From an uncultured Rhodospirillaceae bacterium (GTDB taxonomy: Bacteria; Pseudomonadota; Alphaproteobacteria; UBA9219), in contig CAZZDK010000002.1 of assembly GCA_964652235.1 (NCBI GenBank), forward strand, positions 38,675 to 102,674: 64,000 nt of DNA, written 5' to 3'. The stretch's first letter is position 1, and every line of letters starts with the position of its first letter. Below, piece by piece: positions 27,733-43,761 of this stretch. The notes under the pieces are model-generated. The model did no database searches, was not told where the DNA came from, and saw only the letters and a program-made list of their open reading frames with translations. The translations under genes and the position numbers were made by a program.

Positions 27733-27735
27733 ACC

Positions 27736-28038: not shown

Positions 28039-28109
28039 ATCTTCATCACACATTCCCACCGACGCCGCTTTTAAGCGGCTTTTTTTGTGCCTGAAAGGAA
28101 GGAAAAGTC

Positions 28110-28772: not shown

Positions 28773-29011
28773 TGTGGACGATCATCACAGGCTGGTTTTC
28801 CAGCAATGCGCTCCGGCTTATCGGCTGGGGCGCAATAGCCGCATCCGTCCTTGCCATCCTGCTGGGGGCGCGACAATCAGGCAAGAATGCTGAACGCTAT
28901 GACCAACTCAAGAAAATCACGGAGATCAAAGATGCCCAGCTTCGCGCCGCGATGGATGCCCCTCGGACTCGTGCTGATCTTGTTAAGCGCCTGCGGGACG
29001 GCAAGTTCTAA
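28773..29011 (+). CDS. i-spanin (Rz-like)
   Basis: N-terminal TM (LIGWGAIAASVLAILLG) followed by charged coiled region; contains the o-spanin start in another frame. Confidence 0.5.
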
Positions 29012-29171
29012 CCCCGCCTGCGTTTGTCCTCCGATCATGGTGTACAGTCGGGAGTTTCAGGAGAAGCTAGCAAAAGAAATTGATACAGCCCCATCGGAAT
29101 CTGCATATCCGATCGCCGTATTAGATTATGCAGCTCTAAGAGATCTGGCAGCAGTCTGTCAGACAAGGTAA
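28932..29171 (+). CDS. o-spanin (Rz1-like outer membrane lipoprotein), overlapped architecture
   Basis: Signal peptide with lipobox LLSAC, Pro/Cys-rich mature part (NPACVCPP); starts inside the i-spanin gene in a different frame and extends beyond it. Confidence 0.55.
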   Translation: MPSFAPRWMPLGLVLILLSACGTASSNPACVCPPIMVYSREFQEKLAKEIDTAPSESAYPIAVLDYAALRDLAAVCQTR

Positions 29172-29986: not shown

Positions 29987-30049
29987 GTTATAGTTTCCTT
30001 GTGTAAAACCTTTGTTTTCAAAAGCCTATGTTTTTTGCTCTTAGCATCT

Positions 30050-30853: not shown

Positions 30854-30873
30854 GTTATTCCTTTCTTGGATCG

Positions 30874-31542
30874 TTACAAATCTCTTCTAAAAACTTGCCT
30901 AATTTTATCCGTCAGATCTCTCATCGGGGCATGATTTTTAGAAAGGCTTGACCAGTTAATTTCAATCAAATTCCCAGAGAAAGAACGATCCACTTCATCA
31001 ATCGATGCCCAGTGATTTTCCCAATTCCAAGATAAGTGGCTGCTCGGATGATGACAGCGGAGACTCTTGATCTTGCCGTCCTGATAGCGAACCCCATTAA
31101 ATAGAATTAAGTGCCCCCCTTTCCCAATTGTCCTGCCGTCCTCATCCTTCTCTCCACCACGCAAGCCGACAGCGACAGAAACAATGCAAACGTTTCCATG
31201 ACTTATAATTTTAGCAATTGTATCTGCGCCAACATTCCGATGGCATTGGCCAGAAACGCCATATTTTGACAAGAGACGAAGCAACCCAGCGTGTATCCAG
31301 CCCTTATCGCAATAAGCCTTCTCTGCAAGACCTTCATTGAGAAGCTCCCACGTTGTTTTTCCGAAACTCTCTTGTTGCAGTTCCTTCACGCCGGACACAA
31401 GCATCTTTACACAAGCAATGCCGCAGGCACGGGGGGACCAATGTCTTGCTTCCTCTTCTGTTGGGCCGCGCTCTGAATCAACCTCAATGATCTGAGAGAA
31501 GAACGGAATCCCCTCAACTACATCTTCTTTACTATTCTGCAT
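30874..31542 (-). CDS. Papain-like/C39-like cysteine peptidase-fold protein
   Basis: Candidate catalytic Cys in SPRACGIACVKML and His in GGHLILFNG as in Peptidase_C39_2/BtrH-like folds; assignment tentative. Confidence 0.35.
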   Translation of the reverse strand: MQNSKEDVVEGIPFFSQIIEVDSERGPTEEEARHWSPRACGIACVKMLVSGVKELQQESFGKTTWELLNEGLAEKAYCDKGWIHAGLLRLLSKYGVSGQCHRNVGADTIAKIISHGNVCIVSVAVGLRGGEKDEDGRTIGKGGHLILFNGVRYQDGKIKSLRCHHPSSHLSWNWENHWASIDEVDRSFSGNLIEINWSSLSKNHAPMRDLTDKIRQVFRRDL

Positions 31543-32499
31543 TTATCCCCCGAGTTTTGCTGTGTGTAAGAGCCAATTAACAACGTGACTTTGTTCATAA
31601 CCGATGCTTTTGGCAGAAGGAACGGAAATGCCATAGTTCCTTCCAAGGCTCGGATATGAGTTAGCCTCAAGAAAATATAAGCCCTTCTCCGTTTGAAGAA
31701 AATCCACTCTTAAAAGCCCATTAAATCGAAGCATTTCGTATGCGGCTCGTGAAAAAGCCTCCAATGCGGTTTGTTCTTTGGGCGAAACGTTTGCTGGTAC
31801 CTCCATCTCAACAGAATGGGACGTTCTTTTTGCTTCTTCATCAAAAATCGCAAACCCATTCTGGAGTGTAATTGAAACTGGAGGCAGAACCGTTACCGCA
31901 ACGCCATCATTCTGCCGAATAATTGGAACGGAGATTTCAACGCCTTTAAGATATGGTTCAACCATAAAAGAACCGTATGTTTTTATAAGTTTGCTTGCCG
32001 ATGCTTCGGCTTCGGCCTCCTCACGAACAAACACAACATCCTGGCCGCCGCCGCCATTCGTTGGTTTGATGATATATCCGTCCTTGTGCTTTCGGCGCAT
32101 AAACGTCCACAAATCAGCAACGCTAGAACAAAGCGTATCAGGTATTGTCAAAATGCCCGATCCGGTCAGCATTTTCTTTGTCAGCATTTTATTTGCGGTC
32201 ATATATGATGAGAACTTACGCGGCCCTGAATAAGGAACGCCAAGCGTTTCAAGAGAATCTCGTAAATCAAACTCTCTGTCTGTTCCCCTGTAATAGGGAT
32301 CTAACAAAAGGGCTTTCCCAGCGTTATGCCGCAGGCGCCCCCAGTTATGGGGAGGAATTGCATATGCCGGAATAATCTCATTCGGTTGATTTTGTATTGT
32401 GAGACATTCAGAAACTTGTTGCGAGACCTCTTCAAGATCTTCTCTCTCAGTTTCTGATCCTGCGTAAATTATATATACTTTGCTCATAATTTTCCTCAC
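31543..32499 (-). CDS. D-alanine--D-alanine ligase family ATP-grasp enzyme (paralog 2)
   Basis: ATP-grasp motifs YIIKPTNGGGGQDVVFV, EPYLKGVEISVPII, RVDFLQTEKGLYFLEANSYP; Ddl-like N-terminus IIYAGSETERE. Confidence 0.6.
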   Translation of the reverse strand: MRKIMSKVYIIYAGSETEREDLEEVSQQVSECLTIQNQPNEIIPAYAIPPHNWGRLRHNAGKALLLDPYYRGTDREFDLRDSLETLGVPYSGPRKFSSYMTANKMLTKKMLTGSGILTIPDTLCSSVADLWTFMRRKHKDGYIIKPTNGGGGQDVVFVREEAEAEASASKLIKTYGSFMVEPYLKGVEISVPIIRQNDGVAVTVLPPVSITLQNGFAIFDEEAKRTSHSVEMEVPANVSPKEQTALEAFSRAAYEMLRFNGLLRVDFLQTEKGLYFLEANSYPSLGRNYGISVPSAKSIGYEQSHVVNWLLHTAKLGG

Positions 32500-33428
32500 A
32501 TGGGCAAGCGGATTTTCTTTAAAAGAAAGGCAACTAGTTCGTCGTAAGTACGCCCTGAAGCCTTCCAGATAGAGGCTAGGTTCCCTGCCTCAGAAAGACC
32601 GGGAACAGTATTTGCTTCAAGCAAATATGCTTGACCCTGCGCGTCAACAAGATAATCGAATCTAACGACTGCGTCACACCCCATAGCTCCATACATTTTA
32701 GCTGATGCCTCACGGACAGATTTTTCAGAATCAGCTGAAATCTCAGACGGCAGGATGTACCGACGTTTATTTTCATTATGTTTGATTTCGTAATCGTATA
32801 GAGCCCCGTCAAAACGCACCTCTAAGAGAGGAAGCGTTATATCGATCTCGGGTTCGCCCGTTATCGCACAGGTGACAAACGAACCATCGATAAACTCTTC
32901 GACGATATATGGTTCATATTTTCTATCACGACTATCAATTTTGTCTTCCAGTTCCTTCAAACTCGATACAATTTCGACCCCACGGCTTCCGCCTCCATAA
33001 ATAGGTTTAAGAATATACTTTTTGTTTTCTTCTGCAGAAAGGACGGGGAGATTCATGTGCGCCTTCGTTGCTTCGAGACGATTAAGAACCCCCGGCGTTA
33101 GAACATTTAATGAGTGCGCCAAGGCTTTAAAACGCAACTTGTCAAACCCAACAATATGAGCATAAGGACGGGAGAAGTTATAGGGAATACCATTTACTTC
33201 ACAAAATGAAGAAAGGGCACCATCCTCTCCATTTTTTCCATGCATGCTGTTAAAAACGACAGATTGCGGCGACGCCTTCAAATCGTGGTCTTTTAAAGGA
33301 AATTCAATCAATCGATTAGGAACCCCGCGTCTGTCTAGCGAGCGAGCGACTGTTGCTGCGGAAATGATAGACCCCTCACGTTCCCAGCTCTCTCCTCCAA
33401 AAACTACAAGTACTGTGCTATTCATCAT
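32496..33428 (-). CDS. ddl: D-alanine--D-alanine ligase family enzyme (paralog 1)
   Basis: VLVVFGGESWEREGSIISA, HGKNGEDGALSSFCEVNGIPY, RFDYLVDAQGQAYLLEANTVPGLSEAG - classic Ddl signatures; ATGA overlap with paralog 2. Confidence 0.75.
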   Translation of the reverse strand: MMNSTVLVVFGGESWEREGSIISAATVARSLDRRGVPNRLIEFPLKDHDLKASPQSVVFNSMHGKNGEDGALSSFCEVNGIPYNFSRPYAHIVGFDKLRFKALAHSLNVLTPGVLNRLEATKAHMNLPVLSAEENKKYILKPIYGGGSRGVEIVSSLKELEDKIDSRDRKYEPYIVEEFIDGSFVTCAITGEPEIDITLPLLEVRFDGALYDYEIKHNENKRRYILPSEISADSEKSVREASAKMYGAMGCDAVVRFDYLVDAQGQAYLLEANTVPGLSEAGNLASIWKASGRTYDELVAFLLKKIRLPM

Positions 33429-33531
33429 CTGTCTTCTCCTTTTTAGATATAGTTCACCCGTTCACTAATCTCGTGTTTCGAGAAAAGCGTTTTAGAAAAT
33501 TCTTAAATGCCCTATTGCCTTCAGAAGGCTA

Positions 33532-33738
33532 TTAAGGGCTTCGCTGAAGACAAAGCCTATTGTAACCGCCTTTTTTGTTTATTTCTTCAGCCTCCTGCCT
33601 CGTGAGAGGGGCTGGATCTGTGCAACAATAAATGCTCGGCGGGCAAATTGCTCCGCAGGCGATGCAATCCCCTTCAACCACAGCAACAATGTTTTGTACT
33701 GAACGCTTGATGTCTTCATTTTTATCTATTTTCGTCAT
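33532..33738 (-). CDS. Cys-rich small protein (68 aa)
   Basis: Motif EGDCIACGAICPPSIYCC (CxxCxxxCP...CC); between MurF-like and Ddl genes in the operon. Confidence 0.3.
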   Translation of the reverse strand: MTKIDKNEDIKRSVQNIVAVVEGDCIACGAICPPSIYCCTDPAPLTRQEAEEINKKGGYNRLCLQRSP

Positions 33739-33753
33739 TTTTCCTCCTTAAAA

Positions 33754-35226
33754 TTATAAACTCGGACACGTGGAACAATGAATGTATTTGCTGCAACTTA
33801 CTTTGTCGCAGGCACTTTTCTTTCCCTCCATAAACAAGGCAACGCGCTCAAGATGCGAAAAACGTGAGCCTTTAATGAAGATGCAGGTGTTAGCCGGAAT
33901 CTCCTTTCCGGCTAGAATCTGGACAGCTTCGCCCCACTTTTCTACAATCGATATTTTATCAAGAGAAAACTGCGACATCTTGGCCGCTTCTCGCCATGTT
34001 TCCCCTGTTTCTCCTACACAAATTATTGCCCCATCAATCTCGCGTGTGGCCTTCAATATTTGAACATATGAGTCCAAAATAAAGTCGCCTACCTCTCTCA
34101 AATCGCCGAGGACCAGAATTGCGTTTTCTCCCGTCTCTCGAATGAGATTGATCCCGTTCAAAACGGAAGCGACGCTTGCGTTATAGGTATCATCTATAAC
34201 CCGCCCAGAAGGGAACGAAGATATGCGCAGGCGGCTTTCAGCTTTCCCGTTTGTAAGGGCGCTTGCTATTGTTTTCGGGTCTATCCCAGCGGCGATTCCA
34301 ACAGACACAGAAGCAAGGCAAGCGTACATTGTACCTTGGTCGCTAGGTTCAACTGATATATTGACCTCGCCCTTGGGGGTTTGGATTGAGAGGTTCTGAC
34401 TGTTTGAAATGATCTCTTTCTTTTGCATCCTGACATCGGCAAGCTCACCTGTGCCGAACCACAAAACTTTCCGGTCCGCCCCTTCCAAAGCCCCCTTTAG
34501 CGAGGCCAAGCTCTGATCATCGGCATTAAGTACAGCAATCCCATTCGGACGCAACTTGTCCAATAGCTTGGCTTTTTCCTTTAGGATAACCTCTATAGAC
34601 CCAAATCTTCCAACATGGGCAAGGCCGATATTCGTTATCACGGCAATATCAGGCAAAATTGTTCCAGCAAGCCATTCCATTTCACCGGGCGTGTTGATGC
34701 CAACCTCAATGCAAGCAAACTTTGTATCTTCGTTGATATTCACCAAAGTCAGGGGAATACCGAATTCGTTGTTGAAACTCTTTTTGCTGAACACCGTCGG
34801 AGCGATTTCGGAAAAAGAGCTACCTATATGGTTCTTGGTTGTTGTTTTGCCGACACTTCCCGTTACGGCAACCGTTAACGGATTATAGTGCTCACGGATT
34901 GTGCGTGCGAGTGCATGTAAGCAAAGCAACGAATCTTGAACATGCATAATTCTAGGGTCTTCAAGTTCCAAGAAATCTTCATTAACTACAGCAAGCGCTG
35001 CTCCAGCATTAAGCGCCGCCGCAACATAGGCATGGCCGTCAAGATTCTTTCCTTTGACGGCAAAAAATACTTCACCTTCTCTTATAGAGCGTGAATCGAT
35101 GCTTACACCCAAGAAGTCTTGATCAAGCACAGCGCCAAAACTTTCAGTTTGCAGCTTTCCTAGGTAATCAGAAAACAGATTTTTCAATGTTAACATCGTC
35201 GTTCCTTGCTTTGTTTGTGTGGTCAT
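33754..35226 (-). CDS. Mur ligase, MurF-like (UDP-N-acetylmuramoyl-tripeptide--D-alanyl-D-alanine ligase family)
   Basis: N-terminal MurF signature DSRSIREGEVFFAVKGKNLDGHAYVAAALNAGAALAVV, P-loop TGSVGKTTTK; unusual Cys-rich C-terminal tail ACDKVSCSKYIHCSTCP. Confidence 0.7.
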   Translation of the reverse strand: MTTQTKQGTTMLTLKNLFSDYLGKLQTESFGAVLDQDFLGVSIDSRSIREGEVFFAVKGKNLDGHAYVAAALNAGAALAVVNEDFLELEDPRIMHVQDSLLCLHALARTIREHYNPLTVAVTGSVGKTTTKNHIGSSFSEIAPTVFSKKSFNNEFGIPLTLVNINEDTKFACIEVGINTPGEMEWLAGTILPDIAVITNIGLAHVGRFGSIEVILKEKAKLLDKLRPNGIAVLNADDQSLASLKGALEGADRKVLWFGTGELADVRMQKKEIISNSQNLSIQTPKGEVNISVEPSDQGTMYACLASVSVGIAAGIDPKTIASALTNGKAESRLRISSFPSGRVIDDTYNASVASVLNGINLIRETGENAILVLGDLREVGDFILDSYVQILKATREIDGAIICVGETGETWREAAKMSQFSLDKISIVEKWGEAVQILAGKEIPANTCIFIKGSRFSHLERVALFMEGKKSACDKVSCSKYIHCSTCPSL

Positions 35227-35323
35227 AGTCTTTTGTTGTAGACTCTATAACCTTAGTCCTATATTTGCCCATACCCTTCTTTAAGGCATAATGGCGGCTT
35301 TTTCTTGTTGCCGCAGCTGGCCT

Positions 35324-35878
35324 CTAATGTATTGAGTAAAGCCTATATTTTTCCTTTCCATATTGCGTTTCTTCATTGTGCTCTTCTTTAATTTCTTCTG
35401 ACATTAACGCCCTCTTCGCAGCTCGAATTATGCGAGCATAAAGCGACTGAGGCGGCCCGTTCTTTCCAAGAAAGCTCTTCATACTAACAAAACAAGGCGG
35501 GGCCTCTGGATGCAATGCGCTTGCTTGCTTTTCTGCAACCCGTCCAACATAAACTATTGTTTGTGCCGATATAAACGGACCTCCCTCTTGTGTGAGGATC
35601 GTGACTGGGGCCATCGGGCCGATACAAACTTTTGTTGTCTCCAAGACCTCGCGCCGCGCTGCGGCTTCTGCATCGTCGTCGCCCCACTCAACACGTCCGC
35701 CCGGCAGAGCAAAACGGTCTGCATTCTTAATCATCAGCACACGGTCCTGATCATCAAAAACTACGACCTTGACGTACTTTGGTTCGCTTTTGGACAACTT
35801 TCCGATCTGCGTCTTTCCGAACAGGGCATCAGCTGCCGTCTGTTGTTTAGCTTTAGGCATAACGCGCCCCCCGTTCAT
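35324..35878 (-). CDS. NUDIX hydrolase
   Basis: Nudix box GGRVEWGDDDAEAAARREVLETTKV. Confidence 0.6.
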   Translation of the reverse strand: MNGGRVMPKAKQQTAADALFGKTQIGKLSKSEPKYVKVVVFDDQDRVLMIKNADRFALPGGRVEWGDDDAEAAARREVLETTKVCIGPMAPVTILTQEGGPFISAQTIVYVGRVAEKQASALHPEAPPCFVSMKSFLGKNGPPQSLYARIIRAAKRALMSEEIKEEHNEETQYGKEKYRLYSIH

Positions 35879-36125
35879 GAGGATAACCCGTATCAGTTGT
35901 ACGACGATTAATCTCTAAAGCAGCCAAAGCATTAGCGAAGTGCCAGAGAGAAGCTATGTCCTGATGGGTAAAGCCTTTTGCGATCAGGTCTTGTTGTGAG
36001 CAGTCTCCCAACGCTAATGTCGTTTCGACAATTGCATCTGCCATGTGTGCGACTGGCTCAAACCTTTTATCTGTTTTGGTCGTGATCTGATCTACAATAA
36101 GACGATGGCGAACGGCCTTAGTCAT
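35853..36125 (-). CDS. Hypothetical protein
   Basis: ORF only; overlaps neighbours in operon. Confidence 0.3.
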   Translation of the reverse strand: MTKAVRHRLIVDQITTKTDKRFEPVAHMADAIVETTLALGDCSQQDLIAKGFTHQDIASLWHFANALAALEINRRTTDTGYPHERGARYA

Positions 36126-36501
36126 TATTTGCCTCCTTGGTTTCGGAGACAGAGACAGTCATGCGGGAAATCCAAGCATGAGAAAATACTAGGGTGCTTT
36201 CCGCTTGGCCGCTTTCGGCAGGAATAGAAACCATGGACTCCTGCTGGACAAACTGGATGCCATGTCGTTCAAAAGTTTTGACAAGCGTTTTGATCGTGTC
36301 TTCCTTGGGCGAATAAATTCCATGTTCGATATTTTTGATTGTTTCCGCCGATAACTTGGCTTCCTTGGCGAGATCGCTGCGCGACCAGTCAAGCATGCTG
36401 CGCGCTGCGCGCAATTGCGACGGGCCAATCGGGCAATCCTTGATTTGCGGCTGAAAAGTTTCATTTTTGAATATGGCTGCTTCCACTCGTGAGAGGCTCA
36501 T
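36118..36501 (-). CDS. XRE-family HTH transcriptional regulator
   Basis: HTH QLRAARSMLDWSRSDLAKEAKLSAETIKNIEHG; N-terminal region paralogous to 37477..38145 and 39013..39663. Confidence 0.5.
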   Translation of the reverse strand: MSLSRVEAAIFKNETFQPQIKDCPIGPSQLRAARSMLDWSRSDLAKEAKLSAETIKNIEHGIYSPKEDTIKTLVKTFERHGIQFVQQESMVSIPAESGQAESTLVFSHAWISRMTVSVSETKEANND

Positions 36502-36959
36502 TGGTAGCCTCCCGCTTTTCTGTCCTCGATTTCCTCATCAAGGTATTTCAGCACCAGATCAGCCAGCTGCTCGTTCGAAGCCTCCGCATAGAACAACCAT
36601 TGCTTCCGGCGCGTCTTACGCTGCTGGAGGCGATCATAAAATTGAATCAGAGTTTCCCGATCTTCGGGCAGCTGCGTTTCTTCGCGCTTTTGTAGTTCCT
36701 CAATGTGCATGTTGAGTGCTGCGTCAACCTTCGTTGCCCACTTGTCTTCGGCAAGGGCGAGGTCCTGTGCAGGAAATGTCTGTTTCAGGTGCAGATTGCA
36801 AAACTCGTCCATGAGTTTCGCAAGGGCGACAATTTTCTGAGTGGCTTCTTTCGATTTGGCGTTCTCGCCCTGTGAAATCATGCTCTGAAACGCCAGCATA
36901 AGGCAAAGGCGCGCGGGAAGATTATCATGCGTCATGGTTGCGTCCCCGCTTGTTATCAT
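36498..36959 (-). CDS. Hypothetical protein
   Basis: ORF only. Confidence 0.3.
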   Translation of the reverse strand: MITSGDATMTHDNLPARLCLMLAFQSMISQGENAKSKEATQKIVALAKLMDEFCNLHLKQTFPAQDLALAEDKWATKVDAALNMHIEELQKREETQLPEDRETLIQFYDRLQQRKTRRKQWLFYAEASNEQLADLVLKYLDEEIEDRKAGGYQ

Positions 36960-37254
36960 TCGACCACAGCCCGATTAGCACCTTGGCCAACCGTCCAAGG
37001 AGGTTCAGGTCTTCTTCGGATGGATCTGGCAGAGGCGTGTTGGCACAGCGAAGGAATGTTATGCCGTGGCTTGTTATCGTCTGCATAAACTCCGTGCGGG
37101 CTTCGTCGGAAGAAAAGTTATCCTGAATCACGACGCCAACGGTGGGATCTGGATACGCGGATGAGAGCGTTTCGACATTCTGTGTATCGTTCATGAGCAG
37201 AGCCGATGTCTTCATTGTGCGCTTCATAAGAACCCCGTTGATTGCGTCCAACAC
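36925..37254 (-). CDS. Hypothetical protein (first gene of long leftward operon)
   Basis: ORF only. Confidence 0.3.
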   Translation of the reverse strand: MLDAINGVLMKRTMKTSALLMNDTQNVETLSSAYPDPTVGVVIQDNFSSDEARTEFMQTITSHGITFLRCANTPLPDPSEEDLNLLGRLAKVLIGLWSNDNKRGRNHDA

Positions 37255-37417
37255 ATGAGTTCAAATGCCGTAATTCCGCGCACAGAAACCACAGCTATTT
37301 TTTCCGCTTTTCTCCCTATAACGGGGAGTTTTTAGGCAAATTCAGATGGGTTCCCGTTTTTCTGCCAGTTGCAGGGAGTTTTCCATCCAAGCCTCCCTTG
37401 ATAGGGGAGGCTTTTGA

Positions 37418-37449
37418 CAAAAAAATACGCGCCAATTTGCGATTGGCGC
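37418..37449 (-). terminator. Rho-independent terminator for gene 37477..38145
   Basis: Minus-strand hairpin GCGCCAAT-CGCAA-ATTGGCGC followed by TATTTTTTT; an adjacent second hairpin GCCTCCC-TTGATAG-GGGAGGC + TTTT (37391-37415) reads as a plus-strand terminator. Confidence 0.5.
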
Positions 37450-37476
37450 GTTAGGTCTTCGGGGGAAGAAATTGAT

Positions 37477-38145
37477 TTAAGTTCGTTCTTTGCTTTCAAT
37501 AGTTAGAGGCAAAGCATTGTCCCACATTTCCGAAAAATGGGCTCTCTCGTTAAGCGAAATGTCAGTAGAGGTTATAACATAATACCAAAATTCATTACTG
37601 CTTGTCATAAAAATGAAGGCATGTTTGTTTCCACATTGCAGGGTCGACCAAATGCCGACAGTCGGCATAGCGGTCGCTCTCATCTGAATACTCGGCACAA
37701 CGAGTGAAGAATTGCGCGCATCCGTCAAAAGACATCTGACGTCGGCATATTTGCTCAGGTTCGTCAACCGTTCAAGATTGGCGTGATTAGCGACGCCAAG
37801 CGAAGCGGCCATCTGCTCAGCTGTTTTATATATGGCAAGCATTTCCCCGCCGTGTTCTTTGGCGGCGACGAGCATGTCTTCATAGAATTGCTCTGTTCCT
37901 TCGGGGCCGCTGTATTTCTTGGCTTCGTGGTTATTGAGAACAACGCCGCGTGTGCCAACGAACTCCACACCTTTCTTTTCAAGGCTTCTACGGATTTCGA
38001 CTAGCCGCGCCAACGAAATCTTTTCACCTTTCTCGAATTTGGCGACTGTTTTAGGCGAGACACATGAGGCCAAGGCCAAATCGTCTCGCGTCCAGTCCAG
38101 CAAACTGCGCGCCGCTTTAATTTGCCCGGGGCTAATTGCGTACAT
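37477..38145 (-). CDS. HTH regulator with C-terminal domain of unknown function (paralog of 39013..39663)
   Basis: N-terminal HTH QIKAARSLLDWTRDDLALASCVSPKTVAKFEKG; shared GGEML motif with paralog. Confidence 0.5.
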   Translation of the reverse strand: MYAISPGQIKAARSLLDWTRDDLALASCVSPKTVAKFEKGEKISLARLVEIRRSLEKKGVEFVGTRGVVLNNHEAKKYSGPEGTEQFYEDMLVAAKEHGGEMLAIYKTAEQMAASLGVANHANLERLTNLSKYADVRCLLTDARNSSLVVPSIQMRATAMPTVGIWSTLQCGNKHAFIFMTSSNEFWYYVITSTDISLNERAHFSEMWDNALPLTIESKERT

Positions 38146-38167
38146 TTCTTGCCTCTGTCCTTCAAAA

Positions 38168-38599
38168 TCAGTTCACTAATTTTTTCATTTCTAAATCGAC
38201 TAAGAATTCGATGGCGTTCTGGTAAAGCCGCGATGGCAGAGCTTTAACTTCACTTACATCGAAATGTGCTGTTAGAATCTCACAGACAGTCGTCTCATCA
38301 ACTTTTTGGTTGTAGGCTACATAAGTGATCATGCTGCAGATTGCTTGCATCTCTATGTCGTTCAATGGCTTTTCATGCGCCTTGCGTAGCGCGGCAAGAC
38401 CGGAGGTCAAGAGGCTCAGGTCCCTGACGGAAAGGTCTCTACATTCCGTAGCCTCGTTTGTGGTTTCGTTGGCGACGTTCATGGGGTGGGGCTTGTTGCT
38501 CATCGGTTGCTCCTTAAACAGTAGCCGTAGGAGCTGGGGCGGGATGGCAATTGACAAAATCATTGGTGGCGGAAATAAAATGTTCCCAGCGTTCTTCAA
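38168..38599 (-). CDS. Hypothetical protein, member of 3-copy paralog family
   Basis: C-terminal motif VCEILTAHFDVSEVKALPSRLYQNAIEFLVDL shared with 41211..41492 and 41571..41900. Confidence 0.35.
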   Translation of the reverse strand: MKNAGNILFPPPMILSIAIPPQLLRLLFKEQPMSNKPHPMNVANETTNEATECRDLSVRDLSLLTSGLAALRKAHEKPLNDIEMQAICSMITYVAYNQKVDETTVCEILTAHFDVSEVKALPSRLYQNAIEFLVDLEMKKLVN

Positions 38600-38708
38600 G
38601 CATCATTGGGCGTTCATGACGGACATTGTTGTCGCGTTCCCACATCTCGACAATATACTGGATCAGGCTCTCACTATGCTTCTTTGTAATCGTGTCGAAA
38701 TCGAGCAT

Positions 38709-39012
38709 TTTAATCTCCCCAATATGTCCTTATGATTGAAAGGCGCCCCACGCTTCTCGATTTCAAGCCGTCAAATGCAATTTCCTGAAACCGTATATGC
38801 AATGTAATTTGTTTCTAACCCGAAAGCAATACATTTCTCACCTAGTAAAGGTGGAAAATGCACTATATCATACCTAAAATAGGTTGATTCCTACCAAAAA
38901 AAGGTAGAGTCATCAAGAAAGCAATAAAATTACGAAAGCATTTTGCACCTTTTAATGGTGGAGAAAGTATTGTATGGTACGCTCATGATAGTCGATAAAG
39001 GATAAATTAACC
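38709..39012. promoter_or_regulatory. AT-rich divergent promoter/operator region
   Basis: Between leftward 38168..38708 genes and rightward 39013 HTH gene; contains adjacent hairpin-type sites TACCTAAAATAGGT and TACCAAAAAAAGGTA and three GCAATnnAnTT direct repeats. Confidence 0.4.
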
Positions 39013-39663
39013 ATGAAGCTAACTGGTCTCCAAATCGCCGCCGCCATTACACTATCAGGGCTAACAAGAGAAGCCTTGGCAAACGAGGCGGGCGTTGGCC
39101 GCAACACGATAGATAGAATTATCAACGAAACCGCTGCGTGCCGCGAAGATACAATACGCAAAATCACAGACATTCTTGAAGTACGCGGCATTGAGTTTTT
39201 GCCAGGCGAAGGCGTTCGCAAAAAAGAGCAAACTGTTACAACGCTTACTGGAGACGACTGCCTTCAAGAGCTTCTGTTGGATGTATACCGGACTCTGCAA
39301 GATAGGGGCGGCGAAATGCTTATCGCGCATTTGGACGAAGGAAGCGCAGCAAGAAGCTTAAAAAAAGAATTCTTGGATGAACAAATTCGCAAACGCAAGG
39401 TGGCAAATATAACTTGCCGCTTGCTCGTTCGAGCAGATGATCCGAATCTTATTCCCCCTTATGACACCTATCGGGCAATACCTGACGAGTCATTCTCTCC
39501 ATATCCGTTTTACATTTATGGATCGAAGTTAGCCCTTTTGTCTTGGAAGCCGGAGCCGCGCGTAATCATAATTGACGATCAGCGTTTTGCCCATAGTGCT
39601 GCAAAGCTATTTGATATTGCATGGAACACAGGTAAAGAAATCATTCGAAACGAGAAGAAATGA
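39013..39663 (+). CDS. HTH regulator (paralog of 37477..38145)
   Basis: N-terminal HTH LTREALANEAGVGRNTIDRIINE; stop overlaps downstream start (ATGA). Confidence 0.5.
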   Translation: MKLTGLQIAAAITLSGLTREALANEAGVGRNTIDRIINETAACREDTIRKITDILEVRGIEFLPGEGVRKKEQTVTTLTGDDCLQELLLDVYRTLQDRGGEMLIAHLDEGSAARSLKKEFLDEQIRKRKVANITCRLLVRADDPNLIPPYDTYRAIPDESFSPYPFYIYGSKLALLSWKPEPRVIIIDDQRFAHSAAKLFDIAWNTGKEIIRNEKK

Positions 39664-40700
39664 CAATGTTTTCAGCTTATATGCATGAACTTGATTTTGA
39701 AGAATGGCTCGAACAAAGCCAATATGTCGAGCGCATTAATGATGCCAATATTTCTCGCCTTACAAGACTTTTAGCCTCGGAGATAGACGTCGACAGTTAT
39801 GCGGTTTCTCCCGCATATTATGCCTATACAGGAAGACGGGGGCTGTGGCTTTATCATTATGACGGAACCTTTCTTCCGATGTGCTGGCATCCCAACGTCG
39901 AGGGGCAGATGTTAGTTTTCCCGCCGCGTGGGCAGAAGAATTACGCTGCAGTCACAGCGTTACTAAACGAAGCTCCCTCACCGCCGCGAGGATTTCTTCT
40001 AGCGAGATTTAAACCTCAAGAGATAGGCCAGCTTAAAACGCTTTATGCCTTTGTTAGCCGCGTATCTTTCGAGCCCATTGAGGAAGAGGTTCTCGATTGG
40101 CGTTATCCAGCGAGGATTTTATCCACACTTAATACCACTCAAATGCTTGGGCATGAATATATGCTTATCCGAAACCGCGTCCGCCAAACGAAGAAATATA
40201 CGGTGGATACAGAACGCCTTTCGCTCAAACATATTCCAGAGATTGAGCGTCTCGCTTTGCGCTGGGCCAACAAGCAAGCCGAGAACCCTGAAGAACTTAT
40301 CGATCTAGTTACCCCCTATAAAGAAACTTTGCGTCTCTACAAACAGAGAGAACTTGGGCTTGATGGCTTGGTGTTTATTGTCGACGGCCAGATTCAGGCG
40401 ACAACAATATGGGACATCTCAAACCCTGAACACAAGATAGCCAATCTGTATATGAACCTGTGTAATGTTTCCTATCGAGGGTTGTCTGAATTTTCAATCA
40501 AAGCAACGGCAGCAATATTGTGTGAAAAGGGCGTTCCGCTTCTCAATCTTGGAGGATCTGAAACGGCCAGCCTAGATCATTATAAAAATAAATTTTCGCC
40601 AGCCATAAGCGTTCATCTTTGCTCACTAGAGGCTGGTGTAGCTATGATGCCGAATATTGCTGGCACACTCCCTGTTGAAAAGGAGCTTAGAGTAGCTTAA
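39660..40700 (+). CDS. Enzyme-like protein of unknown function (possible GNAT/Fem-like or DUF2156-like fold)
   Basis: 346 aa translationally coupled to HTH gene; weak resemblance to acyl/aminoacyl-transferase folds; not confirmed. Confidence 0.25.
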   Translation: MTMFSAYMHELDFEEWLEQSQYVERINDANISRLTRLLASEIDVDSYAVSPAYYAYTGRRGLWLYHYDGTFLPMCWHPNVEGQMLVFPPRGQKNYAAVTALLNEAPSPPRGFLLARFKPQEIGQLKTLYAFVSRVSFEPIEEEVLDWRYPARILSTLNTTQMLGHEYMLIRNRVRQTKKYTVDTERLSLKHIPEIERLALRWANKQAENPEELIDLVTPYKETLRLYKQRELGLDGLVFIVDGQIQATTIWDISNPEHKIANLYMNLCNVSYRGLSEFSIKATAAILCEKGVPLLNLGGSETASLDHYKNKFSPAISVHLCSLEAGVAMMPNIAGTLPVEKELRVA

Positions 40701-41149
40701 TGCCAAAATTAAAACGATCCCAGCTCAAAGTCGGCAACACTATCGAGCCGGACGGGTTTCCTCCGGGCCGGATAGTAACGATTGAGAAATGCACACTTGA
40801 GAGCTTCATCGATGGAAAGCGGAAAAAGCGGTGGCCTTGTTGGACGGTTCGCACCGACGCTCCGCGACCTCTGCACAAATACCTTATTTGCGATCTCGGC
40901 AAAATAGACGGCCTCATTCTCTGGAGAAAGTCAGAGATAAAGTTTGCGCCTAAAGACGCAAAATTATGGGTTGAACGCAGCGGACTTGAGGAAATGGAGA
41001 ATATTACCGGCAATGGGCCAGATAGTTTTATCTATTCAATGCTTGTTTACATTCTTGATCACAAGAGCAAACAGCCTAGCAAATTCTATCTTATAGAAAG
41101 AATGCGTGATGCCAGAATCTTCCGGTACGAAGGATTTCGTGTTGGATAA
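40700..41149 (+). CDS. Hypothetical protein
   Basis: ORF only; start overlaps upstream stop. Confidence 0.3.
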   Translation: MPKLKRSQLKVGNTIEPDGFPPGRIVTIEKCTLESFIDGKRKKRWPCWTVRTDAPRPLHKYLICDLGKIDGLILWRKSEIKFAPKDAKLWVERSGLEEMENITGNGPDSFIYSMLVYILDHKSKQPSKFYLIERMRDARIFRYEGFRVG

Positions 41150-41210
41150 ATTCGCGGCCACATCGAAATGTTGCCTTCTTTGTTTGACGCGCATTATCGC
41201 GGCTCTAGCC

Positions 41211-41492
41211 TCAACTTTTTGCTGCAGCGCTTGACTTAACAATGCCCTCAAGAAACTTTGTCACAGCCCCAAGATCCTTTGCGGGGATATGGCTTAAATC
41301 GCCAACACCGAAAACCCGCTGGGTAATTTCAAAGATTTCCGCTTCCTCGCTTTTCATTTCGCCAGAAACCTGACGGATGAGCATGGAAAGCGTGTGCGCT
41401 TCCTTGGGAGTAAGCGTTCTGGTAAGCCCGCTACTTTGATTAGAATCTTTCGCCTTAAAGGGAAGAATATTTGATGTCGTATTTTCTTCCAT
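41211..41492 (-). CDS. Hypothetical protein, paralog family member
   Basis: C-terminal IFEITQRVFGVGDLSHIPAKDLGAVTKFLEGIV. Confidence 0.35.
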   Translation of the reverse strand: MEENTTSNILPFKAKDSNQSSGLTRTLTPKEAHTLSMLIRQVSGEMKSEEAEIFEITQRVFGVGDLSHIPAKDLGAVTKFLEGIVKSSAAAKS

Positions 41493-41570
41493 GCCATACC
41501 CTCTTTACAAAACGCCCCAATGCAACATCCCTATTGCACCGTTAATGCGGCCCGAATTCATTGTAAAGGC

Positions 41571-41900
41571 TCAGTTCTTTGTGTCGCTTGAGCCCGTAAA
41601 GTCAACAAGAAAGCCAATCAGGTCATTGAAGGCCGCCAAGGGTATGTCCTCAATTTTTGAGGCACCGAACGTCTTACATGTCATCTGAATAATTTCGGCC
41701 CCTTCGATTTTCAGATTGTAGGATAGATATGAGATCAATGCATAAGCGGCTTTGATTTCTTTCTCCCCTAGCTTTCTCGCAGGATCGCTGGCAAAGGTTG
41801 ATGCAGGGGTTCTTATCTCGCCCGGAATAGCGTCTGCAGAAAATTCTTTGCTCATTGCTGTATATCCTTTGCTGAAAAAGATTTTAACCAGCTGCCGCAT
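41571..41900 (-). CDS. Hypothetical protein, paralog family member
   Basis: C-terminal IIQMTCKTFGASKIEDIPLAAFNDLIGFLVDF. Confidence 0.35.
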   Translation of the reverse strand: MRQLVKIFFSKGYTAMSKEFSADAIPGEIRTPASTFASDPARKLGEKEIKAAYALISYLSYNLKIEGAEIIQMTCKTFGASKIEDIPLAAFNDLIGFLVDFTGSSDTKN

Positions 41901-42185
41901 TGTACCAGAAATGGGTGCCTTTCTTCAAAACTTGCATGGCCCACGGTCGTCCTAACATGAGTGCAGCATGAGAGCACTTTGGGAGCAAAGTATGGGTGCA
42001 AACCGATAACGATTTGAAAGTGAACGCAGAAAACCGAAGGGAAATGGAAAAAGCCTATACGGTTTTGCAAGGAAATGGCTAAAAATGGCGCGTTTGTGTC
42101 AGATAAAAACGAAAGTGGTTGCCATTGTCTGGGAATGCGCGTAAAAGGAGATTATCGTTCTAAATCAATGGGGTAATGCTTTTCC

Positions 42186-42230
42186 TTGGTAAGGACGGGG
42201 TCGTAGGTTCAATTCCTATCGGCAGCACCA
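42186..42230 (+). other. 3'-terminal fragment of a tRNA gene (T-arm GGTTCAATTCC + acceptor 3' strand + CCA); probable att-site remnant
   Basis: GTAGG-TTCAATT-CCTAT T-arm followed by CGGCAGC-A-CCA; no complementary 5' acceptor strand or D-arm upstream, so not an intact tRNA. Confidence 0.5.
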
Positions 42231-42402
42231 GTTTTACAATAAAATCAGTAAGCTTTCCCGAATGTTCCGATCACCTCATCGGCGCAAATATGCAGAACTT
42301 TGCAAGAACGTCGGCCAAAAGTGGGGGAAAAGTGGGGGAAGATAAAGAGATCCGAAAAAAGGCGGTACCCTTGCAGATACCGCCCCTTCCATACAAAAAC
42401 GT

Positions 42403-42681
42403 CTATCGGCTTGTTACTGCCCAAACAAGAGGTCCATCGCCTTTAGCCGCGTTGTTTTGCCAGTGCAGTGGTTGAAGGTTACTAATATGATCAGAACCGC
42501 CCAAATTTACAGGCCTTATATGATCAATTTCCCAACCAAACTCGCTTTCACGGTTTCCGTAGTCCGTCCTTTTAATCCATGCCCCGCAAATATCCTTGCG
42601 TAATCCTTGGATTTCCTTGTCCGGACCGACATAAGCCGCTTTCGCCCAAACTTGATTTACTTGTTCTTGAGTAAAGGCCAT
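42403..42681 (-). CDS. HNH endonuclease (92 aa)
   Basis: EIDHIRPVNLGGSDHISNLQPLHWQNN - HNH motif. Confidence 0.6.
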   Translation of the reverse strand: MAFTQEQVNQVWAKAAYVGPDKEIQGLRKDICGAWIKRTDYGNRESEFGWEIDHIRPVNLGGSDHISNLQPLHWQNNAAKGDGPLVWAVTSR

Positions 42682-42866: not shown

Positions 42867-43316
42867 TTAAGGAGACGAAGAATTTTTTTGTTTTTTCTTC
42901 CTTTCTTCTCCATCTGTTAAATCAATGATAATCCAGTTTTCCATGTGTCCTTCTTTTGCAGGATACATGGTGGTGTCTTTAGGCTTAATGTTGTAATATG
43001 ACAAAAAGCTCTTTCCAGCTATGTCGGCTCCAAACTTCCTTAAACGCAAATTAATCCCTCCTTCGGCATTCTTATCTTTTGAAAATTCAAAACCAATTCT
43101 TCCTTCTTCTTTATCATAGTACAGCGTACAAACCGCGTATTTTTCTAATGAAAAACGCCGCCTTGTGCCTTGATTAAATCCTATTAATCCGTTGCGACTA
43201 ATAGATATTTTTGGGGTAAAAGACCGTCCCCCGCCTGTAAATTTTTCAAAGCCCATGAGATTCTCCATTTCTGATATTGAAAGAATATTCATGATCGGAG
43301 AGTTTGTCAATAACAT
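42867..43316 (-). CDS. Hypothetical protein (AT-rich)
   Basis: ORF only; Lys-rich C-terminus. Confidence 0.3.
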   Translation of the reverse strand: MLLTNSPIMNILSISEMENLMGFEKFTGGGRSFTPKISISRNGLIGFNQGTRRRFSLEKYAVCTLYYDKEEGRIGFEFSKDKNAEGGINLRLRKFGADIAGKSFLSYYNIKPKDTTMYPAKEGHMENWIIIDLTDGEERKKKQKNSSSP

Positions 43317-43761
43317 TGTTGTATACTAAACCCAGTTATGGTTAAAAAACATTAACAAACTTATTGTGCGAACCATTTTCTATCTTACTTGTCATCACTC
43401 ACCAAGCCTCGGCAACCGTTTCCCCGCCTCCCTTACGACCTCAATATCCCTGACGTTCTCCCCATCTTCGGGGCAATTTGATTTAGAGTCTTTGGGATAA
43501 AATAGCCATGTCTGGGGCTAAGGGCAAACGGCAGGCTGCTCGACCGCAAGAGTCGAGAGCAGACTGGCGCGATAGGGACCTTATATCACTGGTCTAATTT
43601 TTGGGGGCAGCTCACTAACTCAATTTCTGAGCCCAGCACCTAATATTTTCTTAAAATTAAGGGCTAAGCGTGTTTTTTTGCCGGTTATACGGGCCAATTA
43701 TATATATTATGTTAATCTTGCCCTTGTACTTTCCAGAGAGAACTTTAGACAAAATCGGTCC

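What the first reader, a model, noticed from the sequence alone, without database searches (positions are those of the whole stretch)
42186..42230. Orphan tRNA 3'-end fragment (T-arm + acceptor + CCA) inside the island, likely an att-site remnant
The fragment has GTAGG-TTCAATT-CCTAT followed by CGGCAGC-A-CCA. No 5' half is present.

Such partial tRNA copies mark attL or attR of elements integrated into tRNA genes. The intact copy and the integrase are probably outside the window. They could lie left of position 1, or the fragment could belong to a nested element. Another 1.2 kb of AT-rich DNA (HNH, hypothetical) lies beyond it.
Basis: partly seen in the sequence, partly recalled or inferred. 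Interest (0 to 1): 0.5.

Follow-up and report, generated by a model that had tools for sequence, protein, structure and literature searches.

The report
Prophage attR: displaced tRNA-Thr 3' fragment
The 45-base piece of a threonine tRNA gene is the right-hand attachment scar (attR) of a roughly 56-kb lambda-like prophage that inserted into that tRNA gene, and next to it lies the decayed remnant of an older inserted element; this is ordinary, well-understood biology.

Summary
Window 42186-42230 (+) is 45/45 identical to positions 32-76 (anticodon loop to CCA) of a tRNA-Thr(GGU) gene found unchanged in many alphaproteobacterial MAGs. No functional tRNA is present. Orphan copies with exactly the same left boundary recur in other genomes, which is the signature of tyrosine integrases that cross over in the anticodon loop.

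A Logan contig (L056) is 99.7% identical to window 1-1500 and extends 14 kb further left. It shows the missing end of the element: early genes, a 396-aa tyrosine integrase pointing outward, an MCP-like gene, and then the 3' end of tRNA-Thr in the same orientation. So the fragment is the attR of a ~56-kb prophage. That prophage comprises window 1-29.2 kb (late genes) plus the 13-kb AT-rich accessory region.

The 1.4 kb to the right is the relic of an older element of a second integrase family. It keeps a conserved P' arm, an HNH gene, a 149-aa gene and an 18-codon integrase stub.

Open points: the left tRNA copy is seen only as 30 nt at a contig end, in a sister strain. The two nearest relatives have no tRNA at this locus.

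This is a known kind of feature, of low interest.

The parts
42186..42230 (+). Displaced 3' fragment of tRNA-Thr(GGU), tRNA positions 32-76 including CCA. It is the att core: attR of the prophage on the left, and at the same time the tRNA-side core of the older relic on the right.
   Evidence: 45/45 identity to full tRNA-Thr(GGU) genes, and the same boundary as the orphan copies elsewhere. No tRNA is called here.
42156..42185 (+). Core-proximal P arm with weak residual likeness to the tRNA 5' part (GGGGTAATGC..TCC).
   Evidence: 15/30 matches in fixed register against 5-13/30 in the other orphan copies. Not significant in free local alignment.
41958..42000 (+). Four phased copies of TGRGWGCA (starts 41958, 41969, 41980, 41993). 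Candidate arm-type integrase binding sites on the prophage P arm.
   Evidence: 4 of the 6 occurrences in the whole window, with none on the minus strand. The same motif clusters at -115/-104/-91 in L020 and L011, and at about +105/+117 from the core start in attL of L056 and L008, both next to 396-aa-type integrases.
1..29171 (+). Late region of the lambda-like siphovirus prophage (E2). It contains DUF6362, C5 and N6/N4 methylases, TerL gpA, a lambda-type portal, tape measure, tail tip and lysis-like genes. The element continues about 14 kb left of the window.
   Evidence: Pfam hits. Sister prophages L047 and L056.
29183..42185 (.). AT-rich (~45% GC) accessory region of the prophage between the lysis genes and attR. 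It contains murI, a VanX-like M15 peptidase, two Ddl-like ATP-grasp genes, a MurF-like ligase, NUDIX, several XRE regulators, an LPG_synthase_C-like gene and small ORFs.
   Evidence: Composition. Gene calls and Pfam hits. Only 11 nt separate it from the last phage gene. Related phage contigs carry other low-GC cargo at the same place. It is contiguous with tail genes in L035.
42231..42345 (+). P' arm of an older element (E1, 338-aa integrase family). It has invariant GCAGAAC..GAAC..CA.AAGTGGG, and AAAGTGGGGGAA twice (42317-42339).
   Evidence: 92% identical to the DNA directly 3' of a full tRNA-Thr in L003. Also conserved in L004, L012 and L016 (alignment A5).
42403..42681 (-). HNH endonuclease gene (92 aa), cargo of the E1 relic.
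   Evidence: Pfam HNH, E=7.8e-7. No PADLOC hit.
42867..43316 (-). 149-aa ORF of unknown function, cargo of the E1 relic.
   Evidence: ORF list. No Pfam or PADLOC hit.
43395..43450 (-). Stub of a tyrosine integrase gene: the last ~17 codons plus the stop (DIEVVREAGKRLPRLGE*), pointing toward the tRNA fragment.
   Evidence: 16/16 aa identical to the integrase C-terminal remnant in L003. Homologous to the intact 338-aa integrase of L023/L065, to the partial integrase sequence that runs off the locus end in L004, and to the 329-aa Pfam-confirmed integrase of L038.
43573..43614 (+). 43-nt element of unknown role near the right edge of the inserted block.
   Evidence: 95% identical, in inverted orientation, to a sequence 50 nt from the end of related phage contig L043. 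Logan contig L036 ends inside it at 43602.

Best explanation
The 45 nt are the attR core of a ~56-kb lambda-like temperate prophage (E2) that integrated by tyrosine-integrase recombination into the anticodon loop of a tRNA-Thr(GGU) gene.

Integration splits the gene. The phage brings its own copy of positions 32-76, which rebuilds a complete tRNA at attL. That end lies about 14 kb left of the window, next to the phage integrase. The host's original 3' part is pushed to the far end, where it remains as the orphan fragment at 42186-42230.

Everything between the two copies is prophage:
- early genes, outside the window;
- late genes, window 1-29.2 kb;
- a 13-kb AT-rich accessory region ending in a P arm that carries four phased TGRGWGCA repeats.

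The DNA to the right of the fragment (42231 to ~43.6 kb) is what lay downstream of the tRNA before this phage arrived. It is the decayed left end of an older integrative element (E1) of a different integrase family. It keeps its P' arm, two small cargo genes and the last ~17 codons of its integrase. The rest of E1, including its own distal tRNA fragment, has been deleted.

**Shown:** fragment identity and boundary; the recurrence of orphan copies; the integrase stub and P' arm homologies; the leftward continuation in a 99.7%-identical contig.

**Inferred:** that the left copy is a full tRNA in this genome; that the motif clusters are arm-type sites; the order of the two insertion events; whether the prophage can still excise.
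For: **1. Identity and boundary.**
- The fragment is 45/45 identical to tRNA-Thr(GGU) positions 32-76.
- Every complete orphan copy in other genomes starts at the same base, TTGGTAAGG.

**2. Precedents for paired copies.**
- Contig L012/L023 (= L065) has a full tRNA, an 8.3-kb island with an intact integrase, an orphan core, then 1.8 kb and an integrase stub.
- L015 has a full tRNA and an orphan copy 1.4 kb apart.
- P22-like viral contig L038 and Rhizobium phage phiU have an integrase followed ~30 nt later by the 44-45-nt core.

**3. The left end of this prophage.**
- L056 matches window 1-1500 at 99.73% and extends 13,996 nt to the left.
- In window orientation it reads: tRNA-Thr 3' end ...GGTTCAATTCCTCTCGGCAGCACCA (+), a 0.3-kb arm, an MCP-like gene, a 396-aa Phage_integrase pointing toward the tRNA, then the cI/cro region, replication genes and DUF6362.
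- The spacing between the two CCA ends is about 56.2 kb. A related phage contig is 54.1 kb.
- L056 begins exactly 30 nt before the CCA. That is where a k=31 assembly (my assumption about Logan) breaks at a repeat ending at the CCA.

**4. Integrase-to-site linkage.** Homologues of the 396-aa integrase sit next to tRNA-Thr(GGU) in L002 (56% identity) and L008 (a 24-aa piece at the locus end, 245 nt from the tRNA). The P' arms of L056 and L008 align.

**5. Arm motif.** TGRGWGCA occurs 6 times in 64 kb, and 4 of those lie at 41958-41993 with 11-13-nt spacing. The same motif sits in the arms of L056, L008, L020 and L011. L020 also carries a homologue (89% aa) of the window's 149-aa gene at 40700-41149, in the same position relative to the core.

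**6. Host-derived 3' part.** Sister contig L035 is 98.9% identical across window 30701-42220. Its core carries a compensatory T-stem change (GGAGG/CCTCT), the same allele as the tRNA end in L056. This is expected if both copies track a functional tRNA.

**7. Right flank is a different, older element.**
- The P' arm is shared with L003, L004, L012 and L016, each time next to a full tRNA.
- The integrase stub matches the stubs in L003 and L064.

**8. Cargo region belongs to the phage.** Related phage contigs have low-GC, defence-like cargo immediately after the same lysis genes.
Against: - **Left copy incompletely seen.** It appears only in a sister strain (a Logan contig from another sample), and only as its last 30 nt. 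A full-length tRNA there is inferred, not seen.
- **Allele mismatch.** That left copy carries the GGAGG/CCTCT T-stem allele, while the window's fragment has GTAGG/CCTAT. The two ends have never been seen in one genome.
- **No tRNA at the 'empty site'.** In the two closest available relatives (GGDEF-EAL orthologues at 72-76% aa, with syntenic downstream genes), the site upstream of the GGDEF-EAL gene holds a 329-aa gene and a 100-160-nt spacer, and no tRNA. Either this species has a tRNA-Thr here that its relatives lack, or the deletion that truncated E1 also removed host DNA.
- **Other heptamer on both sides.** RAAAGTGR occurs on both sides of the core (42016, 42111 | 42317, 42328). This would also fit a single cognate attP.
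- **Phage-like sequence beyond the fragment.** A 43-nt match to a related phage contig lies right of the fragment at 43573-43614. This hints that phage-derived DNA may extend beyond the fragment.
- **Integration modules are swapped in this phage family.** L058 and L062 carry a serine recombinase. Relatives therefore do not all use this site.
Confidence: 0.78

Rival explanations
1. The fragment is an internal, disused attP. Core, P' arm, cargo and integrase stub would be the prophage's own former integration module, in vegetative (lambda-like: tail, b region, att, int) order. That module was later truncated or replaced, and the prophage's real right end lies near 43.6-43.7 kb, with integration at a non-tRNA site.
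For: - The order late genes, AT-rich region, core, then an integrase pointing at the core mimics lambda's vegetative map.
- RAAAGTGR occurs on both sides of the core.
- The nearest relatives have no tRNA at this chromosomal site.
- A 43-nt match to a related phage contig lies at 43573-43614.
- Relatives swap integration modules.
Against: - The same prophage in L056 has a different, intact integrase (396 aa, 24% identical to the stub's family) sitting next to a tRNA-Thr 3' end.
- The window's left arm carries the motif of that 396-aa family, while the right arm carries the motif of the other family. The junction is therefore a hybrid.
- The left arm has no similarity to the P arm of the one complete element of the stub's family, L023.
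Confidence: 0.1
2. The fragment is only the tRNA-side core of the small right-hand relic (E1). The tRNA's 5' part was lost by an unrelated deletion or rearrangement, and the prophage to the left is unconnected with the tRNA.
For: L064 shows such a case. There, only the last 20 nt of the tRNA remain in front of the same P' arm, cargo and integrase stub, with unrelated GC-rich DNA on the left.
Against: - In the window the break is exactly at the anticodon-loop boundary used by all the integrase-generated orphan copies. It is not at an arbitrary point as in L064.
- The left flank carries arm-type-like repeats shared with other attachment sites of the 396-aa family.
- The prophage's other end lies at a tRNA-Thr 3' end.
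Confidence: 0.05
3. It is a decaying tRNA pseudogene carried passively inside horizontally acquired low-GC DNA, with no recombination history at this point.
For: - The flanks on both sides are AT-rich.
- The 30 nt upstream keep 15/30 matches to the tRNA 5' part.
- L020 has a near-complete tRNA behind a homologous upstream gene.
Against: - Neutral decay would not leave 45/45 identity next to a near-random 5' part with a sharp boundary at position 32.
- The same boundary recurs in the other orphan copies.
- The sister strain's copy differs by a compensatory pair, not by random changes.
Confidence: 0.04
4. It is a chance resemblance to a tRNA 3' end.
For: None.
Against: The fragment is 45/45 identical to a real tRNA. 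Shuffles give 0.00 expected matches.
Confidence: 0.01

Closest known systems
Genomic islands and prophages in tRNA genes with an anticodon-centred ('A' sublocation) crossover, as catalogued by Islander (Williams 2002, cited in PMC4383910; Hudson et al. 2015, PMC4383910)
   Same: - The regenerated tDNA at one end and a displaced 3' tDNA fragment at the other mark the element's ends.
- The identity block runs from the anticodon loop to the 3' end.
- A tyrosine integrase is present.
- Tandem arrays at one tDNA are known: Islander lists 2083 anticodon-centred islands and 125 tandems.
   Different: - Only the displaced fragment is inside the window.
- The neighbouring older element has lost most of its integrase and its own distal fragment. 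[quoted passage not shown]
Rhizobium phage phiU attP (GenBank AB004561, 'core sequence for lysogenization')
   Same: A 44-nt core is 84.6% identical to window 42184-42235, and it lies ~30 nt after the 3' end of the phage integrase gene. The host is an alphaproteobacterium.
   Different: - In phiU and L038 the integrase lies on the 5' side of the core and is co-directional with it.
- In this prophage (seen in L056) and in the relic, the integrase lies on the 3' side, points toward the tRNA, and is separated from it by a cargo slot.
- I did not test phiU's integrase for homology with either family seen here.
Phage lambda prophage map (attL-int-xis ... late genes-b region-attR). From general knowledge, not tested here.
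   Same: - The integrase sits at the left end and is transcribed toward attL.
- A non-essential, compositionally deviant region lies between the tail genes and attR.
- There are candidate arm-type repeats in the arms.
   Different: - The target is a tRNA gene, not an intergenic attB.
- The lysis genes follow the tail genes.
- The accessory region is 13 kb and carries peptidoglycan-precursor-like enzymes.
Salmonella phage P22 integration into thrW, a tRNA-Thr gene. Recalled from memory, not tested here.
   Same: It is a temperate phage integrating into a tRNA-Thr gene, with an identity block covering the 3' part from the anticodon loop.
   Different: The isoacceptor and host group differ. Only L038, not the window's prophage, has P22-like portal and terminase genes.

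Membership tests
Displaced 3' tDNA fragment marking an island or prophage end (Islander definition) | The fragment is identical or near-identical to the 3' part of a tRNA gene. | tested here: met
   45/45 identity to tRNA-Thr(GGU) genes in 24 loci.
Displaced 3' tDNA fragment marking an island or prophage end (Islander definition) | The left boundary of identity lies at a recognised crossover sublocation (anticodon loop). | tested here: met
   All complete orphan copies, including the window's, begin at tRNA position 32, TTGGTAAGG (alignment A1).
Displaced 3' tDNA fragment marking an island or prophage end (Islander definition) | A cognate intact tDNA lies in the same replicon and the same orientation at the other end of the element. 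| tested here: inconclusive
   It is not in the window. In L056, which is 99.7% identical to window 1-1500, the last 30 nt of tRNA-Thr lie ~14 kb left of the window start in the same orientation, but the contig ends there.
Displaced 3' tDNA fragment marking an island or prophage end (Islander definition) | A tyrosine integrase gene lies inside the element. | tested here: met
   A 396-aa Phage_integrase lies in L056, 2.4 kb from the tRNA end. Homologues lie next to tRNA-Thr in L002 and L008. No intact integrase is present inside the window itself.
Displaced 3' tDNA fragment marking an island or prophage end (Islander definition) | The element excises to give attP and attB. | not testable with these tools
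   This needs PCR or read-level evidence from the strain.
Functional tRNA gene | A complete cloverleaf with the 5' acceptor strand, D arm and anticodon stem. | tested here: not met
   ARAGORN reports 0 genes. Rfam gives no tRNA hit at E<=10. The upstream 30 nt match at 15/30.
Tandem array of islands at one tDNA (Islander rule) | Each member has its own integrase gene and its own tDNA fragment. | tested here: not met
   The right-hand element keeps only a ~17-codon integrase stub and has no distal fragment. There is only one core in the window. It is a relic, not a countable member.
Lambda-type heterobivalent attachment site | Arm-type integrase binding repeats lie in the P and P' arms. | tested here: inconclusive
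   Motif clusters are strongly enriched and are shared with other sites of the same integrase families. Binding was not tested.
338-aa tyrosine integrase family of L023/L038 (relic E1) | Homology of the stub to the C terminus of family members that contains the catalytic Tyr. | tested here: met
   The last 16 aa are identical to L003's remnant. L003's remnant is 76% identical to L023 and 53% to L038, and L038 carries Pfam PF00589. The window's stub itself lies after the catalytic Tyr and is non-functional.

The most novel reading that the evidence does not exclude
The prophage's P arm may descend from a complete, promoter-bearing tRNA-Thr 5' half. In relatives of this element (L020 and L011), the copy at the attR position is a nearly perfect 75-nt tRNA, with a single C6A acceptor mismatch and its own TTGACA-type promoter upstream. 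If so, integration by such elements would duplicate the tRNA gene rather than leave a fragment, and the window would show the decayed state (15/30 matches).

A second modest possibility concerns the relics made of core, P' arm, one or two genes and an integrase stub. These are seen in the window, L003, L064 and L023. They may be retained because the slot between att and int holds selected cargo. In L012 that cargo is the IetA/IetS defence pair.
Probability: 0.2. Interest if true: 0.4.

Novelty: new member of a known kind. Interest (0 to 1): 0.15.

Why it matters
- **Prophage boundaries.** The fragment fixes the right boundary of a ~56-kb prophage. It shows that the 13-kb AT-rich block, with its unusual murI / Ddl-like / MurF-like gene set, is phage cargo rather than a separate island.
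- **Layered insertions.** The last 1.4 kb of AT-rich DNA is the remnant of an earlier insertion at the same tRNA.
- **Integration hot spot.** tRNA-Thr(GGU) appears to be an integration hot spot in a little-studied clade of uncultured Alphaproteobacteria. At least two tyrosine integrase families use it, and two candidate arm-site motifs are associated with it.
- **Annotation value.** This helps annotation and prophage delimitation. It does not change what is known about site-specific integration.

Tried and rejected
- **Split tRNA with a group I intron.** GCTGCCG occurs at 41892, 340 nt upstream. Rejected: Rfam finds no intron or tRNA there, and the heptamer lies at the start of a minus-strand ORF.
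- **tmRNA or permuted tmRNA 3' end.** Rejected: there is no G3:U70, and ARAGORN is negative.
- **A second core copy at the low-GC boundary (~29.18 kb) or elsewhere in the window.** None found with up to 3 mismatches. No meaningful direct repeats were found.
- **Junction pattern GGGGTAATGCTTTTCCTTGGTAAGG.** 0 hits in viral contigs and in metagenome contigs.
- **Exact-protein look-ups for window genes 1672-2844, 2822-4051, 6517-8451 and 54082-56667.** None are on record. The exact genome is therefore not in the collection.
- **Core next to the lysis genes in related phage contigs L040-L045.** None found. Those relatives appear to use other integration modules.
- **Viral contigs carrying the 338-aa integrase family (L051-L055).** They share no structural genes with the window's prophage.
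- **Empty-site test with GGDEF-EAL orthologues.** Synteny was found, but no tRNA.
- **PADLOC on the relic's HNH and 149-aa genes and on the small ORFs left of the core.** No hits.
- **My interim idea that the MCP gene beside the L056 integrase was host DNA, and that L056 integrates away from a tRNA.** Dropped when the tRNA end was found at the contig tip.

Full report
**Observation**

Window 42186-42230 (+) reads TTGGTAAGGACGGGGTCGTAGGTTCAATTCCTATCGGCAGCACCA. It is the 3' part of a tRNA-Thr(GGU): anticodon loop UUGGUAA, the 3' strand of the anticodon stem, a 5-nt variable loop, the T arm GTAGG-TTCAATT-CCTAT, the acceptor 3' strand CGGCAGC, discriminator A, and CCA.

- A scan of one genome per species for its last 22 nt returned 34 loci. 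ARAGORN calls a 75-nt tRNA-Thr(GGU) in 25 of them, and 24 of those share the window's core exactly; L033 has a variant anticodon stem.
- The window has no tRNA at all by ARAGORN.
- Rfam finds nothing tRNA-like at E<=10 around the site.
- A 28-nt sub-pattern with up to 3 mismatches occurs once, against 0.00 expected.

**The block behaves as an att core elsewhere**

- In nine of the genome loci (L006, L010, L014 twice, L015, L021, L022, L023, L026, L028) and in one IMG/VR contig (L038/L039), the same sequence occurs without a tRNA 5' half.
- Every complete orphan copy begins at the same base, tRNA position 32 in the anticodon loop; L026's copy is cut off by the locus end.
- In contig L012/L023 (= L065), a full tRNA-Thr and an orphan copy lie 8.3 kb apart and enclose an intact 338-aa integrase gene. 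In L015 a full and an orphan copy are 1.4 kb apart.
- In the P22-like contig L038, a 329-aa Phage_integrase gene ends 33 nt before the orphan core.
- In Rhizobium phage phiU, the annotated 44-nt 'core sequence for lysogenization' is 84.6% identical to the window's fragment and lies 30 nt after the integrase gene.
- An identity block from the anticodon loop to the 3' end is the common 'A' class of tDNA attachment sites in Islander: 2083 of 3919 islands, with 125 tandem arrays (PMC4383910).

**What lies to the right of the fragment**

- Window 42231-42340 is 92% identical to the DNA directly downstream of a full tRNA-Thr in L003. It is also conserved in L004, L012 and L016, with invariant GCAGAAC..GAAC..CA.AAGTGGG and AAAGTGG at +88 to +90 after the CCA.
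- At 43395-43450 (-) the window encodes DIEVVREAGKRLPRLGE*. Its 16 residues before the final E are identical to the end of a ~70-codon integrase remnant in L003 (HxxxHT..LGH..RY). That remnant is 76% identical to the 338-aa integrase of L023, and L004 carries a longer partial copy of the same family.
- The same architecture recurs in L003, L004, L012/L023 and L064, and a second time downstream of the orphan core in L023. It runs: tRNA or core, P' arm, variable cargo, then an integrase pointing toward the tRNA.
- The cargo differs each time: an SDH-type protease, a C5 methylase, the IetA/IetS defence pair, or unknown genes.
- In L064 only the last 20 nt of the tRNA survive.

So 42231 to ~43.6 kb is the decayed tRNA-proximal end of an integrative element (E1). 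Most of its integrase and everything distal to it have been deleted. The HNH gene (42403-42681) and the 149-aa ORF (42867-43316) occupy its cargo slot.

**What lies to the left of the fragment**

- Window 1-29.17 kb is the late region of a lambda-like siphovirus. It carries methylases, gpA-type TerL, a lambda-type portal, a tape measure, a GTA-like tail tip and lysis-like genes, all on the + strand.
- From 29183 to 42185 the GC content drops from ~57% to ~45%. The genes there are murI, a VanX-like dipeptidase, two Ddl-like ligases, a MurF-like ligase, NUDIX, several XRE regulators and small ORFs.
- Only 11 nt separate the last phage gene from murI.
- The same joint is present in a second strain, L035, which is 98.9% identical across 30701-42220.
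- Related phage contigs (L041-L043) carry different low-GC, defence-like cargo at the same position after the same lysis genes. One of them is 54.1 kb in total, running from a serine recombinase to that cargo.

The AT-rich block is therefore best read as the prophage's accessory region, not as a separate island.

**The missing left end**

I searched with the leftmost window protein (DUF6362) and then with the repressor of a sister prophage. This led to Logan contig L056, which matches window 1-1500 at 99.73% and continues 13,996 nt to the left. In window orientation it reads as follows:

1. The last 30 nt of a tRNA-Thr (...TCGGAGGTTCAATTCCTCTCGGCAGCACCA) on the + strand, at the contig tip.
2. 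A 0.3-kb arm containing GTAGAGCAAG / ATGAGAGCAAA / ATGAGAGCAGA.
3. An MCP-like gene.
4. A 396-aa Phage_integrase gene pointing toward the tRNA.
5. The XRE and cI/cro region, replication genes and DUF6362.

Further points support this as the prophage's attL end:

- The distance from this CCA to the CCA at 42230 is about 56.2 kb.
- The contig starts exactly 30 nt before the CCA. That is what a k=31 assembly (my assumption about Logan) produces at a repeat ending at the CCA.
- The 396-aa integrase is only 24% identical to the 338-aa family.
- It has a 56%-identical homologue 4 kb from tRNA-Thr in L002. A 24-aa piece (79% identical) lies at the locus end 245 nt from tRNA-Thr in L008.
- The P' arms of L056 and L008 align.

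**Arm motifs link the window's left flank to that integrase family**

- TGRGWGCA occurs six times on the + strand of the window and never on the minus strand. Four copies lie at 41958, 41969, 41980 and 41993, that is 193-228 nt left of the core, with 11-13-nt spacing.
- The same motif makes up all or half of the occurrences in L020, L011, L008 and L056. There it clusters at -115 to -91, or at about +105 to +118, relative to the core start.
- L020 also carries a homologue (89% aa) of the window's 149-aa gene (40700-41149) on the same side of the core. It comes from the same MAG as L008.

The junction at 42186-42230 is thus a hybrid: a P arm of the 396-aa family on the left and a P' arm of the 338-aa family on the right. 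A newer element inserting into a tRNA that already had an older element downstream would produce exactly this.

**A further argument for a host-derived 3' part**

L035's copy of the core differs from the window's by two changes that compensate in the T stem (GTAGG/CCTAT to GGAGG/CCTCT). The tRNA end in L056 carries the same allele. Paired changes of this kind arise in functional tRNAs, not in decaying fragments.

**Points that do not fit neatly**

1. The two closest available relatives of the host (GGDEF-EAL orthologues at 76% and 72%) share gene order downstream. Upstream they have a 329-aa gene and a 100-160-nt spacer, and no tRNA. Conserved host sequence resumes at about 43705 (TGTTAATCTTGC). 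Either the tRNA-Thr gene sits here only in this lineage, or the deletion that truncated E1 also removed host DNA.
2. RAAAGTGR, the heptamer of the E1 P' arm, also occurs at 42016 and 42111, left of the core. These four sites are 4 of the 6 occurrences on the + strand.
3. Window 43573-43614 is 95% identical, in inverted orientation, to a sequence 50 nt from the end of related phage contig L043. A Logan contig identical to the window ends inside it.
4. The 30 nt left of the core match the tRNA 5' part at 15/30 positions, against 5-13/30 for other orphans. In L020 and L011 the corresponding copy is an almost perfect tRNA with a C6A acceptor mismatch and a promoter-like TTGACA upstream.

These points keep alive a minority reading in which the core is a disused internal attP.

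**Verdict**

The fragment is a genuine displaced tDNA fragment. It is most likely the attR of a ~56-kb prophage integrated into tRNA-Thr(GGU), and it abuts the relic of an older element. This is a well-known kind of feature, and interest is low. The host belongs to an uncultured alphaproteobacterial clade whose MAGs are labelled 'Alphaproteobacteria bacterium' or 'Bdellovibrionales bacterium'.

Noticed in passing
window 29183-35226 (minus strand): The prophage's AT-rich accessory region encodes a compact set of peptidoglycan-precursor-type enzymes: MurI glutamate racemase, a VanX-like M15 D-Ala-D-Ala dipeptidase, a 222-aa protein, two Ddl-like ATP-grasp ligases, a 68-aa ORF and a MurF-like Mur ligase. 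A NUDIX gene follows. This is unusual cargo for a temperate phage, and its product is unknown.
   Followed up: partly
window 45512-45606 (+): A TPP riboswitch (Rfam RF00059, 70.3 bits) lies upstream of a 255-aa ORF, just after the GGDEF-EAL gene.
   Followed up: no
window 43573-43614; L043 19716-19758: A 43-nt sequence (TAGGGACCTTATATCACTGGTCTAATTTTTGGGGGCAGCTCA) is 95% identical, in inverted orientation, to a site 50 nt from the end of a related phage contig. Logan contig L036 breaks inside it at 43602. Its role is unknown; it could be a promoter, an operator, or another attachment or terminal sequence.
   Followed up: partly
L020 7150-7224 and L011 5550-5624 (minus strand): Two MAGs carry a 'full' tRNA-Thr(GGU) with a C6A change that mismatches G67. 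Upstream they share a promoter-like stretch (TTGACA...) and TGRGWGCA repeats. In L020 this copy sits where the window has its orphan fragment, which suggests elements whose P arm carries a whole tRNA 5' half, so that integration duplicates the tRNA.
   Followed up: partly
window 42016, 42111, 42317, 42328 (+): The heptamer RAAAGTGR occurs six times on the + strand of the 64-kb window. Four of the six flank the core, two on each side, although the two flanks otherwise belong to different element families.
   Followed up: partly
L035 11504-11521 versus window 42203-42220: A sister strain's copy of the fragment differs by a compensatory base-pair change in the T stem (U-A to G-C). The same allele is present at the tRNA end of L056.
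   Followed up: yes
L012 2-2966; L003 1723-2634; L004 6024-7355; L056 13259-15340; L064 430-1503: The slot between the tRNA-side att arm and the inward-pointing integrase holds different cargo in each genome: IetA/IetS defence genes, an SDH-type protease, a C5 methylase, an MCP-like chemoreceptor gene, or an unknown 357-aa protein. It behaves like a cargo hot spot.
   Followed up: partly
L056 12072-13262; L058 12513-13901; L062 12598-13983: Closely related prophages of this family carry different integration modules at the same genome position. Some have a 396-aa tyrosine integrase and others a ~460-aa large serine recombinase.
   Followed up: partly
L060 9902-10000; L061 9841-10000: In the two nearest relatives, the intergenic region upstream of the GGDEF-EAL gene is 100-160 nt and contains no tRNA. 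The chromosomal context of tRNA-Thr in the window's species therefore remains unexplained.
   Followed up: partly
window 1629-4051 (+): The prophage carries two DNA methyltransferases in tandem just before the terminase region: a C5 cytosine methylase and a ParB_N-fused N6/N4 methylase.
   Followed up: no
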